A DNA stretch of 64,000 bases, from positions 64,001 to 128,000 of the forward strand of contig CAYWJO010000001.1 in assembly GCA_964458565.1 (NCBI GenBank), written 5' to 3'. Numbering within the stretch: position 1 is the stretch's first letter; every line of letters starts with the position of its first letter. This document shows positions 1,107 through 48,500 of this stretch, piece by piece. The position numbers and the translations under genes were made by a program. The DNA comes from an uncultured archaeon. Lineage in GTDB: Archaea; Asgardarchaeota; Thorarchaeia; Thorarchaeales; Thorarchaeaceae. Under the pieces are notes generated by a model. The model searched no databases. It was not told where the DNA came from and was given only the letters and a program-made list of their open reading frames with translations.

Positions 1107-2759
1107 CTAGATCTTTGAGCGATATTTACGACGTAAGGTAGGTGATATCTCTGGACTGACGAAATCAGGATCCTCTGATTTATCGATGGATGGTTCATCC
1201 ATAGAATCATCTCTCATCAAAGATGATATCCGGTATCTCCAGAAGATGATGTAACATACAATGAATATTGACAATGCGAAGACTAAACCGATTACCATAT
1301 GAGTTGGACTCAGAAATGAAAGATCAGGCCCATCCTCTGCAATGGAGGCTGGTACTATCTTGAATCCTTCGTTGAGATAATTGATGAGTGTATGAGCAGC
1401 AATTGGTCCCATTAGACTTTTCTCTTCAGAGAACTTGACATACCACACACTGAACAGACCACCTAATATTCCACTGAAGGCGACCTTTACAAAAGCCTCA
1501 CTTGCTGGAAAAATACCCGTTTTCACAAAATCTTGAATAGGCCATGCAATATGCCAGAATCCAAAGATAATTGCCGCAGCAACTATAGCTCTATTGATTC
1601 CAAAACGCTCTTTGAAACCATGATATGTGAGACCGCGAAAATAGGTCTCTTCAAAGATCGCATTGATGAAGAATAATGCGAAATTGTATACAATGAGAAA
1701 GGAATCCATCGCAATAGTGAATTGAGCAGCGACACTAGAATCTAATAGTCCTGTATAGATGACAGTTGAAACAATATTCACCAGGAAGTACTCAAAAACA
1801 GCGAAGCATATTCCTATCAATACTAATGCTCTCAAATGGAATGTGGTCAATCCTAGTACAGGTTCGAATTCGTGATGCCGTAGATACCAGAAGATACCAA
1901 GGAGAACTAAAACCGAGAGGATCTTACTAGGCATGACATTGATTACGGTCTCATCGACATTCCAGATGTAGATGTCAATCTCACGAAAGATATAGAATAC
2001 CGGCAAAAGGAGAAGTGCTAGTGAAAGAAGACTACTACTTGCTACGCGATTCTTTACTCTAGAGACAGAAGAATCTAGGGTTTCGGACGGCCTTACTGTC
2101 TTTTGTCTTCTAAACCAAGGATTACTTAGCGCCAGCCCTGCAATCACAGTGGATACGCCGCGAATAATATGAGCGATGAATGCAAGCCCTTGTGTCTGGA
2201 GCGGAATAAGCACTAATTGACTAATTATCATGAGGACCATTGAGAAAACCATGATATCACTGCGAACTTCTTTGAGACGTCCCGTTCTCCAAGTGACAGC
2301 AAACATAGCTGTCAAAGCTAAAATAACTATCAAAACAAGGACTATGATTAGTGTCATGATAATTTGCTCAGAAGGACCAAATGTACTGACAGAGATGGCA
2401 TAGAGAGATTCTCCTAAAAGAATCTGGCGATGTCTATGTTTGATACGATATGCCCAGATATCTAACAGAACGATAGACATTGGAAATACGCTCAACCACA
2501 CCGAAAATGCTCTGATTTTGAAGATTTCAAGTGTATTGGGAATTAATCCCTGACTTATCGAGAAAAGAATGATTGGATTAATTGCAGCAAACAGAAAGGA
2601 TAATCCAAAGGCAAGCGGGAGATCTGTGGATAGACGATTTTCTTGCCGTTTCCAAAGTAAAAGCAAGTAAGCTCCAACAATAATGCTAACGATTATTGAA
2701 ACCAAGTTAGCAGCATCACCAAGAAGATAATCAAGGCCGATTTGTAGCAAATTCTTCAC
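1107..2759 (-). CDS. Multi-TM protein with C-terminal CPBP (Rce1/Abi CAAX-type) intramembrane protease domain
   Basis: FEETYFRG (EExxxR), FGFWH (FxxxH) and AHTLIN (HxxxN) motifs; extra N-terminal block of about 7 TM helices. Confidence 0.75.
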   Translation of the reverse strand: MKNLLQIGLDYLLGDAANLVSIIVSIIVGAYLLLLWKRQENRLSTDLPLAFGLSFLFAAINPIILFSISQGLIPNTLEIFKIRAFSVWLSVFPMSIVLLDIWAYRIKHRHRQILLGESLYAISVSTFGPSEQIIMTLIIVLVLIVILALTAMFAVTWRTGRLKEVRSDIMVFSMVLMIISQLVLIPLQTQGLAFIAHIIRGVSTVIAGLALSNPWFRRQKTVRPSETLDSSVSRVKNRVASSSLLSLALLLLPVFYIFREIDIYIWNVDETVINVMPSKILSVLVLLGIFWYLRHHEFEPVLGLTTFHLRALVLIGICFAVFEYFLVNIVSTVIYTGLLDSSVAAQFTIAMDSFLIVYNFALFFINAIFEETYFRGLTYHGFKERFGINRAIVAAAIIFGFWHIAWPIQDFVKTGIFPASEAFVKVAFSGILGGLFSVWYVKFSEEKSLMGPIAAHTLINYLNEGFKIVPASIAEDGPDLSFLSPTHMVIGLVFALSIFIVCYIIFWRYRISSLMRDDSMDEPSIDKSEDPDFVSPEISPTLRRKYRSKI

Positions 2760-19863: not shown

Positions 19864-20799
19864 TTATTGTGTAATTATCTTATATCTACCATTCTTATCG
19901 ATAGTGATACGCATTAAGTCACGTGCTAGAATTGTGTTTGGAAAAATAGATTTCGCTTCCTCCTCAATAACTGAACCATCCTCGTATCTTGGACTATAAT
20001 GAGTCAACACAAGCAAATCCACATTTGACTCAAGGGCGATAGTTGCAGCTTCAATAGAAGTCATGTGACCACGTGGAGGAGCTAGGTGGGAATGCTCGGA
20101 TGAGAACATTGCTTCTGAAATTAAAATATTAGCATCCTTCGATGCGTTTCTTAGAGCATCACATGGACGTGTGTCACCAGAGTATACGATTTTGATTGGA
20201 TTCGGAGGTGGCCCGGTTACCTGTGAGGGGTCTATTACAGTCCCGTCATCAAGGACCACTCTTTCACCATCAGAAAGTTTTCCCCATAAAGGACCTTGAG
20301 GTATACCGAGTTCTTTTGCCTTCTCAGGCAAGAAAACGCCAGTTGGTCTTTTGTGAATTATCTGGTATCCCAATGCATAACCACGATGCTCTACTTCAAA
20401 GGCATTTACAATCAGTTCGTGATCTTCGTACACAGGTCCAGCTTCAATACTATATACTATACTCTCAAATGTTGTTCCGAGATTGATAGTCGCCTGATTG
20501 ACTTTTACGTATTCTATCAACTCAGGAGGACCATAGATATTCAGAGGCTTGAATCGGCCAAGGAGTGAAAAACGAAGGAGAAGACCAGGTAATCCTAAAA
20601 TGTGATCAGCATGCATGTGTGAGATGAATATTGCCATTCGTTTATTTAGACCAATACCAGCACGTTCGATTTGCCTCTGTAGATCTTCACCACAATCAAA
20701 TAATAGAATCTGTCCTTCATACTGAAATGCGATAGATGGTAAGTTTCGTCCTTCAGTCGGCATGCTCCCGCCAGTGCCAAGGAAAATCACATCAATCAT
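19864..20799 (-). CDS. rnz: Ribonuclease Z
   Basis: FLGTGG, HMHADHILG, GP-rich exosite, SGDT and THYSPRY. Confidence 0.95.
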   Translation of the reverse strand: MIDVIFLGTGGSMPTEGRNLPSIAFQYEGQILLFDCGEDLQRQIERAGIGLNKRMAIFISHMHADHILGLPGLLLRFSLLGRFKPLNIYGPPELIEYVKVNQATINLGTTFESIVYSIEAGPVYEDHELIVNAFEVEHRGYALGYQIIHKRPTGVFLPEKAKELGIPQGPLWGKLSDGERVVLDDGTVIDPSQVTGPPPNPIKIVYSGDTRPCDALRNASKDANILISEAMFSSEHSHLAPPRGHMTSIEAATIALESNVDLLVLTHYSPRYEDGSVIEEEAKSIFPNTILARDLMRITIDKNGRYKIITQ

Positions 20800-27897: not shown

Positions 27898-28500
27898 ATG
27901 ATCGACGAACCAGTTGTATTTCACATTCAAAAAGGACGATTAGTGAAGATGCCTGATCCGGGTGTATTTGGAAGAGGGGACTGCTATCTAATTGATGCAG
28001 GTCCCAAAATCTATCTGTGGATTGGACCCAACTCGAGTGTTGATGAGAAATTCCTAACAGCTGCATCCGCAGTTATGAAAGATACAGCTAGAAAAGGACA
28101 TGCGGATATTGATAGAATCGAGGGCGGGAATGAACCTGATGGATTCAAAGCACTGTTCGATGATTTCAGGCTGACAGATGAAGATACTGAAGGTATTCTC
28201 AAACATGTTCAATTGCAAAAGAAAGAATTCAAACTGTGGCGGGTACATCATGAAGGAGATGAAACATTCTTTGCGGAGGTGCCATTGAACAAGTCGAGTT
28301 TACATTCAGATGATGTCTACATATTGGATACGTGGGAGGACATCTTTGTATGGCGGGGAAAGGAAGCAAGTGCCAGGGAGAGATTTGATGCCACGATACT
28401 AGCACGACGCTACGATGCCGAGCGTGTAGGTGTACAGGAAATAGAACTTATCGAAGAGGGAGAAGAACCTCAAGAATTCATTGTTGCATTACTCGACTAA
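27898..28500 (+). CDS. Two-domain gelsolin (Asgard 2DGel-like)
   Basis: Two gelsolin repeats: GDCYLID..IYLWIG...EGGNEP and LHSDDVYILD..IFVWRG...EEGEEP. Confidence 0.9.
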   Translation: MIDEPVVFHIQKGRLVKMPDPGVFGRGDCYLIDAGPKIYLWIGPNSSVDEKFLTAASAVMKDTARKGHADIDRIEGGNEPDGFKALFDDFRLTDEDTEGILKHVQLQKKEFKLWRVHHEGDETFFAEVPLNKSSLHSDDVYILDTWEDIFVWRGKEASARERFDATILARRYDAERVGVQEIELIEEGEEPQEFIVALLD

Positions 28501-45526: not shown

Positions 45527-45541
45527 ATAAACTAGTCCTGC

Positions 45542-46711
45542 TTAGATGCACCGGTGTATAACTTCAGGTCCTGCTTCTTCGAACTCTTTCCTTGAGACCC
45601 ACATTTACCAGGCTACAACGGGAATCGCTGCAGCATTCTGGAAGGTCTTCAAGGATGCGAGTATTGAGCCACCAATCCAAACTGAGTACTGTCTCTCAGG
45701 AGGAGCGATGATTCGGACTTCAACATTCTCAGGTACAAGTTCGGTAATCTCCTTATGGAGTCGTTCCTTGAGTCCTGGGAACATGGTTGAACCACCAGAA
45801 AGTACGATGTTTGCGTATAGGTCACGTCGCAAGTCAACGTCACAGTCCTTGATAGCCTCGACAATATGCTCATCGAGTGGCTTGGTGTCAAGTCCAATAG
45901 CACTTGGGTTGAAGAACAACTCAGGTCCTGTGAACCTCTCTGCACCAACTGTGATAACGTCACCATCAGGGAGCATGTATGGCTTGTCTACACCAGCCTT
46001 GTCTGCTACTGTCCTCTCACGCTCAGGGTCGAGGGCTACGTAACAGAGTTTCTCCTTGATATCACGGACGATCTCTTTCTCTGCACCGCTTACGAATGTA
46101 TAACCTCTCTGTCTGAGAAGTCTTCGCAAGTACTCGGTGATGTCACGGCCTGCTAAGTCAATACGCTTGATTGCGTGCGTGATGGCGAAACCTTCGTACA
46201 AAGGTACGATGTGTGTGACTCCGTCACCGCTGTCAACAACCAGACCTGTGGTTCTGCCAGATGCGTACAATGATAGAACTGCCTGTGTTGCTACATATAC
46301 TGCAGGAACACCGAAATTCTCAAACATGACTGATGCCATGCGTTCTCTGTTTTCTCTAGGGTTGAATGGTGCCTCTGTTAGGAGGACTGGGTTCTCACTG
46401 GGATCTACTTTCAAGTCGTTATAGAATGTATAGCTCCAAATCTTCTCAATTGCATCCCAGTCGTCGATTACACCGTGGGTGATTGGGTAAACCAATCGAA
46501 GTACACCACGGAGGTTGATTGCTTCTTCGCCGATGTAATAGTCTCGCGTGTAGTGGTCGACGTCGGTCATGATACTCTCGTATCGTGGGTAACCGATGAG
46601 TGTTGGCCAAACACTTCGAGGCTGATCTTCGCCGGCGTATCCGTTTTTGCTGAGCCCAGTACCGTTATCAATAACGATGGGCTTAGCTCCAAGAAATTCG
46701 TCTTCAGCCAT
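45542..46711 (-). CDS. Actin (Lokiactin-type), two exons: 46711-45636 and 45605-45542; 379 aa after splicing
   Basis: [41 protein letters not shown] and [19 protein letters not shown]; the C-terminus [20 protein letters not shown] lies in frame after a 30-nt insert. Confidence 0.93.
45606..45635 (-). other. 30-nt bulge-helix-bulge (tRNA-type) intron in the actin coding sequence
   Basis: Minus strand: ..UU CCAG AA^U GCUGCAGCG AUUCC CGUUGUAGC CUGG UA^A AUG..; 4-bp central helix CCAG/CUGG, two 3-nt bulges and a 9-bp intron stem. Confidence 0.85.
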
Positions 46712-46819
46712 TTTATTTCGGTCCTCTTTTTATTCAATCAGTTCTTGTGCAAAAGTTGTGCAGCAAGACAATTGCAGCGAGTATGAGAACTCTATGCTAA
46801 GGTACAGTTCCTTCCGTTG

Positions 46820-46989: not shown

Positions 46990-47046
46990 ATATAATATAT
47001 GTATCTTAAGAAATTGATTGAGATGTTTTGGCGAACTACAGATGAA

Positions 47047-47820
47047 ATGATTAGAGAGGAAATCGAATCAGTCCGAGCGAGACGTGTAATACTAGACCAA
47101 TTGGAGGGAGGTCCAAAGACAGGTAGTGAATTACGGGATAGTATAAGGAAGGATATGGCTGCACAAACTGTCAGGACAAAAGGAAAGAAGAAACTTAATC
47201 CTAAAGACTTCAAGGTAACAGATCCAAAACTCTACTTCAATACAAAGCATCTTGAAGGACAGGGGATTATTGCTAGTGCTAAGGTATCACAGCAGCGAAT
47301 ATTCGAGATGAATCCAAAGGCAATACATCCGGTGCGGAGAGTTCTAAACATCACAAGACCTATCGCACTCTTCACCTCACTATCCCGTGCAGAGGAACAG
47401 AGGTATTTTGTCAGATGGTTAGCAACATCAAAAGAGATTCAACCCAAGATGCTCTTTCTGTTTATCGATCCAACGAGTCTTCGAGGGGCATCAAAGAACT
47501 TAGATAGATACGTTCCCGACGGATCCAAGAAGAAGTGGGAGAGTGAGTGGATAGATATTGATGCAGAACAAGCGGGAGAAACTGGAACTGCAGGAGAGGG
47601 AAACATAAAGGGTACTTACCATCAAATAGAGCAAGTTCTTCTAGAAAAAATTGATGATTATACAGTAATCGTGGACCTCACTCAAGGAGTCACTACTATC
47701 CTAGCCGCACTCTCTCTCGTAGCAATTGATTATTCTCTGCAAGCCATTCATGTACTGCGTCCAAGAGGAGATGATGCAGTAGTATCATGGATATATCCGA
47801 GAGGATGGAGTGATAGATGA
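47047..47820 (+). CDS. N-terminal wHTH plus C-terminal CARF-like domain protein
   Basis: RRVILDQLEGGPKTGSEL...LYFNTKHLEGQGII wHTH; VIVDLTQGVTTILAALSLVA resembles the CARF DxTxG motif; start uncertain (46999 possible). Confidence 0.55.
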   Translation: MIREEIESVRARRVILDQLEGGPKTGSELRDSIRKDMAAQTVRTKGKKKLNPKDFKVTDPKLYFNTKHLEGQGIIASAKVSQQRIFEMNPKAIHPVRRVLNITRPIALFTSLSRAEEQRYFVRWLATSKEIQPKMLFLFIDPTSLRGASKNLDRYVPDGSKKKWESEWIDIDAEQAGETGTAGEGNIKGTYHQIEQVLLEKIDDYTVIVDLTQGVTTILAALSLVAIDYSLQAIHVLRPRGDDAVVSWIYPRGWSDR

Positions 47821-48500
47821 GTCAAATCGCAAAGAAACTTGCTCTTGATGAAGTTGACATTGAAGACAATGTGTTCCTACTTACTGATGTTCTTAAACGA
47901 GATTTGAATGCAATCCCAAAAAAGAACTCAAGAACAATAAGACGGGTTAAAAGATGGTTAGAGCAATTGGAGTATATATCAACAGCACTCAAAGGAATAT
48001 CAGATAATCTTAAGCCAAGATTGGAGATGGAACTTGATTGTATCTTTCCAGATAGTGAATTGCTTCACATTGTGATGTTTCAGCCTAGTACCAGAAATCT
48101 CTTCATGGAGTTGCGGATATACTTCCAAAACAACGAAACACTCCCAATTCAAATCGAAGATTTTGAAAATCTGGAAGCAATAAGTGATATGGGGAGTGTT
48201 ATTGCCATGTTGGGGGATGCAGCTATATCGATTGCTATACTCCATCATCTCTGGCGTAATCGGACTTCGGATGCAGGGGAAATCACTCAGAAGAGAGCTA
48301 ATTTGGTCAGCAATGAAAACATGGCTCGATTGTGTGATAGATGGGGACTCTACAAAGCAAGGATACACTTTGATCCACCCACAAAGACAAAATCAGAAAT
48401 GGAGCACATCAAAGGTACATTGTTGGAGGCCATCTATGGAATCATCTACATCAATGAAGGTTTTGAAAAGATTATAAAAACGGTTCAACTCTTGAAGTGA
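47817..48500 (+). CDS. Ribonuclease III-domain protein (no dsRBD)
   Basis: LGDAAI, GEITQKRANLVSNENMA and GTLLEAIYGIIY; ATGA overlap with the upstream gene. Confidence 0.8.
   Translation: MSQIAKKLALDEVDIEDNVFLLTDVLKRDLNAIPKKNSRTIRRVKRWLEQLEYISTALKGISDNLKPRLEMELDCIFPDSELLHIVMFQPSTRNLFMELRIYFQNNETLPIQIEDFENLEAISDMGSVIAMLGDAAISIAILHHLWRNRTSDAGEITQKRANLVSNENMARLCDRWGLYKARIHFDPPTKTKSEMEHIKGTLLEAIYGIIYINEGFEKIIKTVQLLK

What the first reader, a model, noticed from the sequence alone, without database searches (positions are those of the whole stretch)
45602..45640. Stop codon built across the 3' splice junction: possible splicing switch for actin
Seen: the intron is a multiple of three with no internal stop; the TAA comes from the last two intron nucleotides plus the first exon-2 nucleotide. 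Unspliced mRNA therefore gives a 368-aa actin whose last 21 residues are replaced by [10 protein letters not shown]. Established: the actin C-terminal helices are part of subdomain 1 and the barbed-end face used by profilin- and gelsolin-type proteins, and eukaryotic HAC1/XBP1 use tRNA-ligase-dependent splicing as a switch. Inference: output of full-length actin could be tied to EndA/RtcB activity (and so to tRNA/rRNA maturation), or two actin isoforms could exist.
Basis: inference. Interest (0 to 1): 0.7.

Follow-up and report, generated by a model that had tools for sequence, protein, structure and literature searches.

The report
Spliced tRNA-type mini-intron in Asgard actin
The main actin gene of this Thorarchaeota (Asgard) archaeon carries a 30-base intron of the kind archaea cut out of tRNAs, and a public metatranscriptome shows the message with exactly those bases removed; the stop codon at the junction is real but looks like a by-product or fail-safe, not a regulatory switch or a second actin form.

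Summary
The intron is window 45635-45606 (minus strand, 30 nt), a bulge-helix-bulge with a 9-bp stem. Its 3' bulge UA|A is the stop: unspliced gives 368 aa, spliced 379 aa, collinear with intronless relatives. A salt-marsh metatranscriptome contig matches the genome at every base but lacks exactly these 30 nt; no unspliced contig was laid (one sample, depth about 7). Five other Thorarchaeota genomes carry a homologous intron with compensatory changes; 69 lack it. EndA (two paralogues) and RtcB are encoded. The switch and isoform readings are not supported: the unspliced peptide is not conserved, one carrier lacks the junction stop, a Loki-type actin has an unrelated frameshifting intron at the same codon, and the flanking exons fold more stably in carriers, as expected for efficient splicing. 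All six carriers still end the unspliced frame, a weak hint of fail-safe selection. The scan noted this intron before in at least four other genomes, and similar ones in EF-1alpha, ahcY and oppB of this genome; none of the earlier notes I saw reports spliced actin RNA. In the papers I could search, only cbf5 has such an intron in a coding sequence.

The parts
45636..46711 (-). Actin exon 1 (codons 1-358 plus the first two bases of Lys359)
   Evidence: ORF list and Pfam Actin; 92.8% identical to the intronless orthologue of complete relative G044
45606..45635 (-). 30-nt bulge-helix-bulge intron, phase 2
   Evidence: Left out in an RNA-library contig with 0 other differences; JGI contig L425 equals the in-silico spliced window at 1221 of 1221 bases
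45542..45605 (-). Actin exon 2 (last base of Lys359, 20 further codons, true stop at 45544-45542)
   Evidence: In-frame actin C-terminus, same as in intronless relatives
45638..45641 (-). Central helix H, exon strand (CCAG)
   Evidence: Fold; 95.8% of cells paired and 2 of 4 pairs with two-sided change over 6 genomes
45635..45637 (-). 5' bulge AA|U, 5' cut site
   Evidence: Sequence, fold, RNA junction
45612..45634 (-). Intron hairpin h' (9-bp stem, 5-nt loop at 45625-45621)
   Evidence: 96.3% of cells paired, 4 of 9 pairs with two-sided change
45608..45611 (-). Central helix H, intron strand (CUGG); it supplies the Trp codon that ends the unspliced peptide
45605..45607 (-). 3' bulge UA|A, 3' cut site; read as the stop codon if unspliced
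   Evidence: TAA in 4 carriers, TGA in 1, AAA (no stop) in 1
45589..45655 (-). Exon-exon helix h (arms about 45655-45643 and 45600-45589) closing the motif; after splicing it is a hairpin with the junction in its loop
   Evidence: Consensus fold; most stable of 368 37-nt windows of the spliced CDS; mean -12.3 kcal/mol in 6 carriers against -6.8 in 20 non-carriers
45537..46787 (-). Span covered by spliced transcript contigs (76 nt before the start codon to 5 nt after the stop)
   Evidence: X1 contigs 45537-46378 and 46349-46777, no cover on either side of the gene; L425 covers 45537-46787

Best explanation
This is an archaeal BHB pre-mRNA intron that is removed as a routine step. Shown: the pre-mRNA can fold a 4-bp helix flanked by two 3-nt bulges, and RNA-library sequence exists with exactly the predicted 30 nt removed. 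Inferred: the tRNA splicing endonuclease EndA cuts after the second base of each bulge and RtcB joins the exons, giving the normal 379-aa actin. The stop is an accident of phase: the intron splits a Lys codon after its second base, so the 3' bulge is read as one codon, and UA|A is a bulge this organism also uses in tRNA introns, where there is no frame. It may be kept as a mild fail-safe, so that ribosomes on unspliced messages release a truncated, probably non-functional chain and not a 389-aa actin with a 10-residue insert. The intron is probably a neutral or slightly selfish member of a family of about 30-nt hairpin introns that land in tRNAs and a few very conserved mRNAs, at sites whose exons already form a hairpin; the route of gain and loss (reverse splicing, cDNA recombination) is inference only.
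For: RNA contig with 30 nt left out at 45606 and 0 other letters over 812 nt; bin depth 4.88 equals 7.45 x 40/61, so nothing was laid on the intron. L425 is identical to the spliced sequence and keeps the junction codon AAA, whereas 66 of 69 intronless genomes use AAG. Compensatory changes in H and h'. Intron identity between carriers is 0.53-0.93 while four-fold exon sites are 0.36-0.62 identical. Exon hairpin stronger in carriers (Mann-Whitney p 0.007, kin not independent). EndA x2 and RtcB present. TA ends 2 of 16 tRNA introns of this genome, and a third of frames of tRNA introns hold a stop by chance. Same-codon, unrelated, frameshifting intron in Loki-type G262, absent from 7 congeners. 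Only 4 coding-sequence introns found against 74% of a complete relative, in genes ranked 3, 4 and 9 of 1314 by identity.
Against: One RNA sample at depth about 7, assembled contigs only, no matched DNA run: the unspliced share is not measured and a constant splicing rate is not shown. All six carriers keep a stop in the last two intron codons, and both changes at the junction keep termination (TA to TG; TA to AA with a new TGA upstream), which is more than pure accident predicts, though on two events. EndA cleavage was not tested.
Confidence: 0.74

Rival explanations
1. Regulated switch: splicing is limiting under some conditions, so actin output follows EndA/RtcB capacity, in the manner of HAC1/XBP1 or the negative-regulator idea proposed for cbf5.
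For: Full-length actin does need the splice; EF-1alpha and ahcY of the same genome are also interrupted, so key messages share the pathway; every carrier terminates the unspliced frame; the idea was proposed for cbf5 (PMC2738675).
Against: Only the spliced form is seen. The motif is close to ideal and the exons add a strong closing helix, which favours efficient cutting. 69 of 75 family genomes lack the intron, carriers do not form one clade (p-AU 4e-7) and congeners differ, so it is dispensable. No alternative fold or regulator site was found.
Confidence: 0.12
2. Two functional isoforms: the 368-aa form is a stable actin with changed binding to gelsolin- or profilin-type proteins.
For: The frame stays open through the intron; five of six tails end in Trp, and MAFFT aligns it with the conserved Trp.
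Against: That Trp codon is the complement of the exon strand of helix H and is lost in G022. The tail changes at non-synonymous positions. The removed part holds a Trp found in 125 of 127 fetched actins and corresponds to residues 354-375 of muscle actin, which by my own knowledge pack on subdomain 1. The Loki-type intron at the same codon frameshifts.
Confidence: 0.03
3. No splicing: the RNA contig comes from an intronless sister strain, and this genome's gene is truncated, read through or an assembly error.
For: No DNA run of the RNA sample could be laid; intron presence varies between close relatives; three intronless genomes have AAA at the site.
Against: 1221 of 1221 bases are identical outside the intron; cover is confined to the gene; it is the only full-length conventional actin found in the genome; exon 2 is fully conserved in all six carriers, the stop varies (TAA, TGA, shifted), and the structure covaries.
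Confidence: 0.05
4. Real intron, but removed by something other than EndA/RtcB (another nuclease or ligase, or self-splicing).
For: No biochemical test exists; an RNase III-domain gene lies nearby at 47817-48500.
Against: The cuts fall where the BHB rule puts them; 30 nt is too short for group I or II ribozymes; the ends are UG...UA, not GU...AG; no Rfam match.
Confidence: 0.05

Closest known systems
cbf5 pre-mRNA BHB intron of Desulfurococcales and Sulfolobales (Watanabe 2002; Yokobori 2009, PMC2738675)
   Same: Short BHB-type intron (16-44 bp there, 30 here) inside an archaeal coding sequence, splitting a codon, with patchy presence; some cbf5 introns are also multiples of three.
   Different: Different gene (actin), phylum (Asgard) and intron sequence; here presence varies within genera, and an unrelated intron sits at the same codon in a distant Asgard lineage; several coding genes are hit in one genome.
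Asgard tRNA introns (PMC11291895; bioRxiv 10.64898/2026.10.13.758758)
   Same: Same motif, same size class (29-34 nt for most in this genome), repeated gains, same EndA inventory.
   Different: Those papers describe tRNA genes only; the preprint says none of its newly identified intervening sequences has been shown spliced in an Asgard cell.
Haloferax HVO_1309 mRNA BHB substrate (PMC7714728)
   Same: An mRNA processed by the splicing endonuclease.
   Different: The sites are in the 5' UTR, not in the coding sequence.
HAC1/XBP1 unconventional splicing (own knowledge)
   Same: Short non-spliceosomal mRNA intron, exons joined by a tRNA ligase, changed C-terminus.
   Different: HAC1/XBP1 use a stress-activated nuclease (IRE1) and are mostly unspliced at rest; here the motif is a housekeeping EndA substrate, the spliced form is the one seen, and the intron is absent from most relatives.

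Membership tests
Archaeal BHB (EndA-type) intron | [quoted passage not shown] | tested here: met
   H = CCAG/CUGG, bulges AAU and UAA; H 95.8% paired over 6 genomes
Archaeal BHB (EndA-type) intron | Cuts after the second base of each bulge restore the exons | tested here: met
   RNA contig lacks 45606-45635; product equals P0011, 379 aa, 0 mismatches; 1-nt ambiguity in placement
Archaeal BHB (EndA-type) intron | Flanking intron helix and exon helix | tested here: met
   9-bp intron stem; the exon helix has an internal loop next to the 3' bulge, so that side is slightly relaxed
Archaeal BHB (EndA-type) intron | Host encodes splicing endonuclease and RNA ligase | tested here: met
   PF01974 on C1 and C5, PF01139 on C2
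Archaeal BHB (EndA-type) intron | Cleavage by EndA and joining by RtcB | not testable with these tools
   Needs an in vitro assay
Archaeal BHB (EndA-type) intron | Excised intron is circularised | tested here: inconclusive
   No contig or joint on the intron; a 30-nt circle would not be expected in these libraries
HAC1/XBP1-type regulated splicing switch | Unspliced message dominates until a signal arrives | tested here: not met
   Only the spliced form in the one sample that covers the junction; other conditions unseen
HAC1/XBP1-type regulated splicing switch | Intron conserved across the lineage | tested here: not met
   6 carriers against 69 intronless genomes; not one clade
HAC1/XBP1-type regulated splicing switch | Dedicated signal-activated nuclease | not tested
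   No search for an IRE1-like sensor was run
Alternative protein isoform by intron retention | Retained sequence under protein-level constraint | tested here: not met
   Variable columns at codon positions 1, 2, 3: 5, 8, 9 of 10; changes follow base pairing
Spliceosomal, group I or group II intron | GU-AG ends or a ribozyme core | tested here: not met
   Ends UG...UA, 30 nt, no Rfam hit up to E 1

The most novel reading that the evidence does not exclude
Asgard archaea use tRNA-type splicing as a post-transcriptional control layer on a few central mRNAs (actin, EF-1alpha, ahcY): unspliced messages are made unproductive by a kept stop or frameshift, and the spliced share changes with EndA/RtcB load, coupling cytoskeleton and translation output to tRNA/rRNA maturation. 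The same actin codon was recruited independently in Thor- and Loki-type lineages for this purpose.
Probability: 0.1. Interest if true: 0.88.

Novelty: new variant of a known kind. Interest (0 to 1): 0.6.

Why it matters
In the papers I could search, cbf5 is the only archaeal coding sequence with a BHB intron. [quoted passage not shown] The practical effect is that public databases hold the 368-aa truncated translation as the gene product, which would mislead structural work on Asgard actins. Independent insertion at one codon in two Asgard lineages gives a testable model for how BHB introns pick their sites. The switch reading would matter more, but the evidence is against it.

Tried and rejected
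Pattern scans of metagenome and genome contigs were swamped by chance matches and gave only copies already in hand. The G071 match is not actin (G071 has an intronless actin), so the carrier count is 6, not 7. A de novo strict BHB scan of the genome was too noisy (12,349 motifs with stems of 6 or more) and missed the ahcY and EF-1alpha introns, which have relaxed motifs; a homology census replaced it but covers only 74% of one relative, and did not recover the oppB intron noted earlier. Both AlphaFold2 models of the unspliced form were poor overall (mean pLDDT 35 and 53), so the low score of the tail is no evidence. Viral contigs gave only distant actin relatives, which I did not examine further. 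RNA runs X2-X4 do not cover the junction. L425 ends at the same base as the X1 contig and is probably the same sample, so I do not count it as independent. My outer helix was out of register by one; one search gives the right pairs. Profilin and reverse transcriptase Pfam models found nothing in the genome (not proof of absence). Stop read-through or another genetic code was rejected: the stop differs among carriers and the RNA shows a deletion. The promoter scan is for sigma-70 and was uninformative. A phylum-wide protein search listed too few rows to survey other actin introns.

Full report
What is there. The window comes from a Thorarchaeota (Asgard) genome: the protein's 90% cluster is annotated as Thorarchaeota actin. 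The ORF at 46711..45605 (minus) is a 368-aa actin and the only full-length conventional actin found in the assembly (a divergent paralogue lies on C7). After its stop the frame continues with the normal actin C-terminus. The intervening RNA folds as a bulge-helix-bulge: central helix CCAG/CUGG, bulges AAU and UAA, a 9-bp intron stem with a 5-nt loop, and an exon-exon helix; z = -6.3. Cutting after the second base of each bulge removes 45635..45606 and rebuilds a Lys codon (AA|A), giving 379 aa.

It is spliced. In metatranscriptome X1 (salt marsh), an 812-nt contig lies on 45537-46378 with no other differing letter and 30 nt left out at 45606. The depth of the bin 45566-45626 is 4.88, which is 7.45 x 40/61, so no other contig lay on the intron. 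There is no cover beyond the gene on either side. A JGI contig (L425, 1221 nt) is identical to the in-silico spliced window at every base and encodes exactly the 379-aa protein; it ends at the same base and is probably the same sample. The junction codon there is AAA, as splicing predicts, while 66 of 69 intronless genomes have AAG. Limits: one sample, low depth, contigs drop rare forms, no matched DNA run. The earlier notes on this intron in other genomes that I could see mention no RNA evidence, and one says none could be obtained.

Relatives. Six of 86 family genomes (this one included, six genera) carry a 30-nt insert at the same site and 69 carry the uninterrupted codon (one hit was chance). 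Helix H is 95.8% paired with two double changes, the intron stem 96.3% paired with four; RNAalifold finds 6 of 22 pairs with two-sided change. Intron identity between carriers (0.53-0.93) exceeds that of four-fold exon sites (0.36-0.62), and carriers do not form one clade on the exon tree (p-AU 4e-7; at least 3 changes forced). That fits an old gain with many losses, or spread between lineages; I cannot tell which. The genome encodes two EndA paralogues and RtcB, and most of its tRNA genes are interrupted by introns of similar size.

Is the junction stop a switch? Against: (1) only the spliced form is seen; (2) the stop is TAA in four carriers, TGA in one, and absent in G022, where the junction reads AAA and a TGA one codon earlier comes from a compensatory change in helix H; (3) TA also ends 2 of 16 tRNA introns here, where no frame exists, and a third of frames of those introns contain a stop by chance; (4) the exon hairpin closing the motif is the most stable of 368 windows in the spliced CDS and is stronger in carriers than in non-carriers (-12.3 against -6.8 kcal/mol), as expected if efficient cutting is selected; (5) most relatives do without the intron; (6) a Loki-type actin (G262, another family) has an unrelated 31-nt BHB insert at the same codon and phase, frameshifting, with bulge AA|A, and 7 congeners lack it. 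For some function of the stop: 6 of 6 carriers terminate within the last two intron codons, and the 30-nt EF-1alpha intron keeps an internal TGA in 4 of 4 genomes, although there the TGA is part of the stem-loop motif. A counter-example is the second, 30-nt, in-frame and stop-free insert in the G262 actin, whose BHB is weaker (z -0.8). I read this as a weak fail-safe at most.

Is the 368-aa form an isoform? The six predicted tails differ at first and second codon positions nearly as often as at third (5, 8, 9 variable columns of 10), always in line with base pairing. The intron sits at the codon equivalent to residue 354 of muscle actin. The lost segment matches the eukaryotic C-terminal segment and holds a Trp present in 125 of 127 fetched actins. 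From my own knowledge, residues 354-375 pack on subdomain 1 and form part of the profilin site; the 2DGel first domain binds the cleft between subdomains 1 and 3 (PMC7444086). A stable isoform is unlikely. The structure predictions were too poor to add anything.

Other coding-sequence introns. Against 2.34 Mb (74%) of a complete relative, I found four in this genome: actin, two in EF-1alpha (31 nt frameshifting; 30 nt with TGA) and one in ahcY (31 nt). These genes rank 4, 9 and 3 of 1314 orthologues by identity. So the introns are rare and sit in very conserved, probably abundant messages, which fits an RNA-mediated route of gain (inference; no reverse transcriptase domain was found). All four make the unspliced message unproductive, by three different means, so the junction stop is not a shared design.

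Comparison with what is known. It works like, and meets every testable feature of, an archaeal BHB intron. The only coding-sequence precedent in the papers I found is cbf5 (PMC2738675, PMC7714728); Asgard intron papers cover tRNAs and no paper found mentions an actin intron. It fails the membership tests for a HAC1/XBP1-type switch that I could run. The scan has noted this actin intron in at least four other genomes and the same class in this genome; those notes are leads, and I rechecked the ones marked as tested.

Verdict. A real spliced intron, a new variant of a known kind. Routine splicing with an incidental or fail-safe stop: 0.74. Regulated switch: 0.12. Functional second isoform: 0.03. 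Interest 0.6, carried by the RNA evidence for mRNA splicing of Asgard actin and the recurrent insertion site, not by the switch idea.

Noticed in passing
L426 (G262), about 1510-1540, minus strand: Loki-type actin with an unrelated 31-nt BHB insert at exactly the same codon and phase as the window's intron (central helix 4 of 4 pairs), absent from 7 congeners: an independent gain at one site.
   Followed up: yes
L426 (G262), about 1458-1487, minus strand: Second insert in the same actin gene, 30 nt, in frame, no stop, 7-bp hairpin, central helix 3 of 4 pairs; absent from 7 congeners.
   Followed up: partly
L016 (G009); also G088 and G098: The only three intronless genomes with AAA at the intron site. 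G009, congener of carrier G023, has the codons that splicing of the G022 form would give: possible scar of precise intron loss, or just codon bias.
   Followed up: no
own genome C45, about 20259-20289 and 20426-20455: Two mini-introns in EF-1alpha (31 nt frameshifting; 30 nt with an internal TGA that is kept in G022, G009 and G079).
   Followed up: partly
own genome C1, about 187500-187540: 31-nt hairpin insert that frameshifts ahcY.
   Followed up: partly
window 27967-28482 (+): Two gelsolin domains in one ORF of about 205 aa (2DGel type), 17 kb from the actin gene.
   Followed up: no
window 46999-48500 (+): Divergent from actin: a 273-aa ORF without a Pfam hit, overlapping by four bases with an RNase III-domain gene; a convergent HD-domain gene follows.
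   Followed up: no
L002/L003 (own genome C7:61505-62293): Divergent actin paralogue (about 40% identity) in a 298-aa frame that lacks the middle part (query residues 184-267), next to a tRNA gene.
   Followed up: no
own genome, tRNA genes on C5, C7, C11, C69: Several tRNA introns share the loop motif of the actin and EF-1alpha introns (ATTTC or similar, after a G-rich stem), which suggests one family or a shared binding motif.
   Followed up: no
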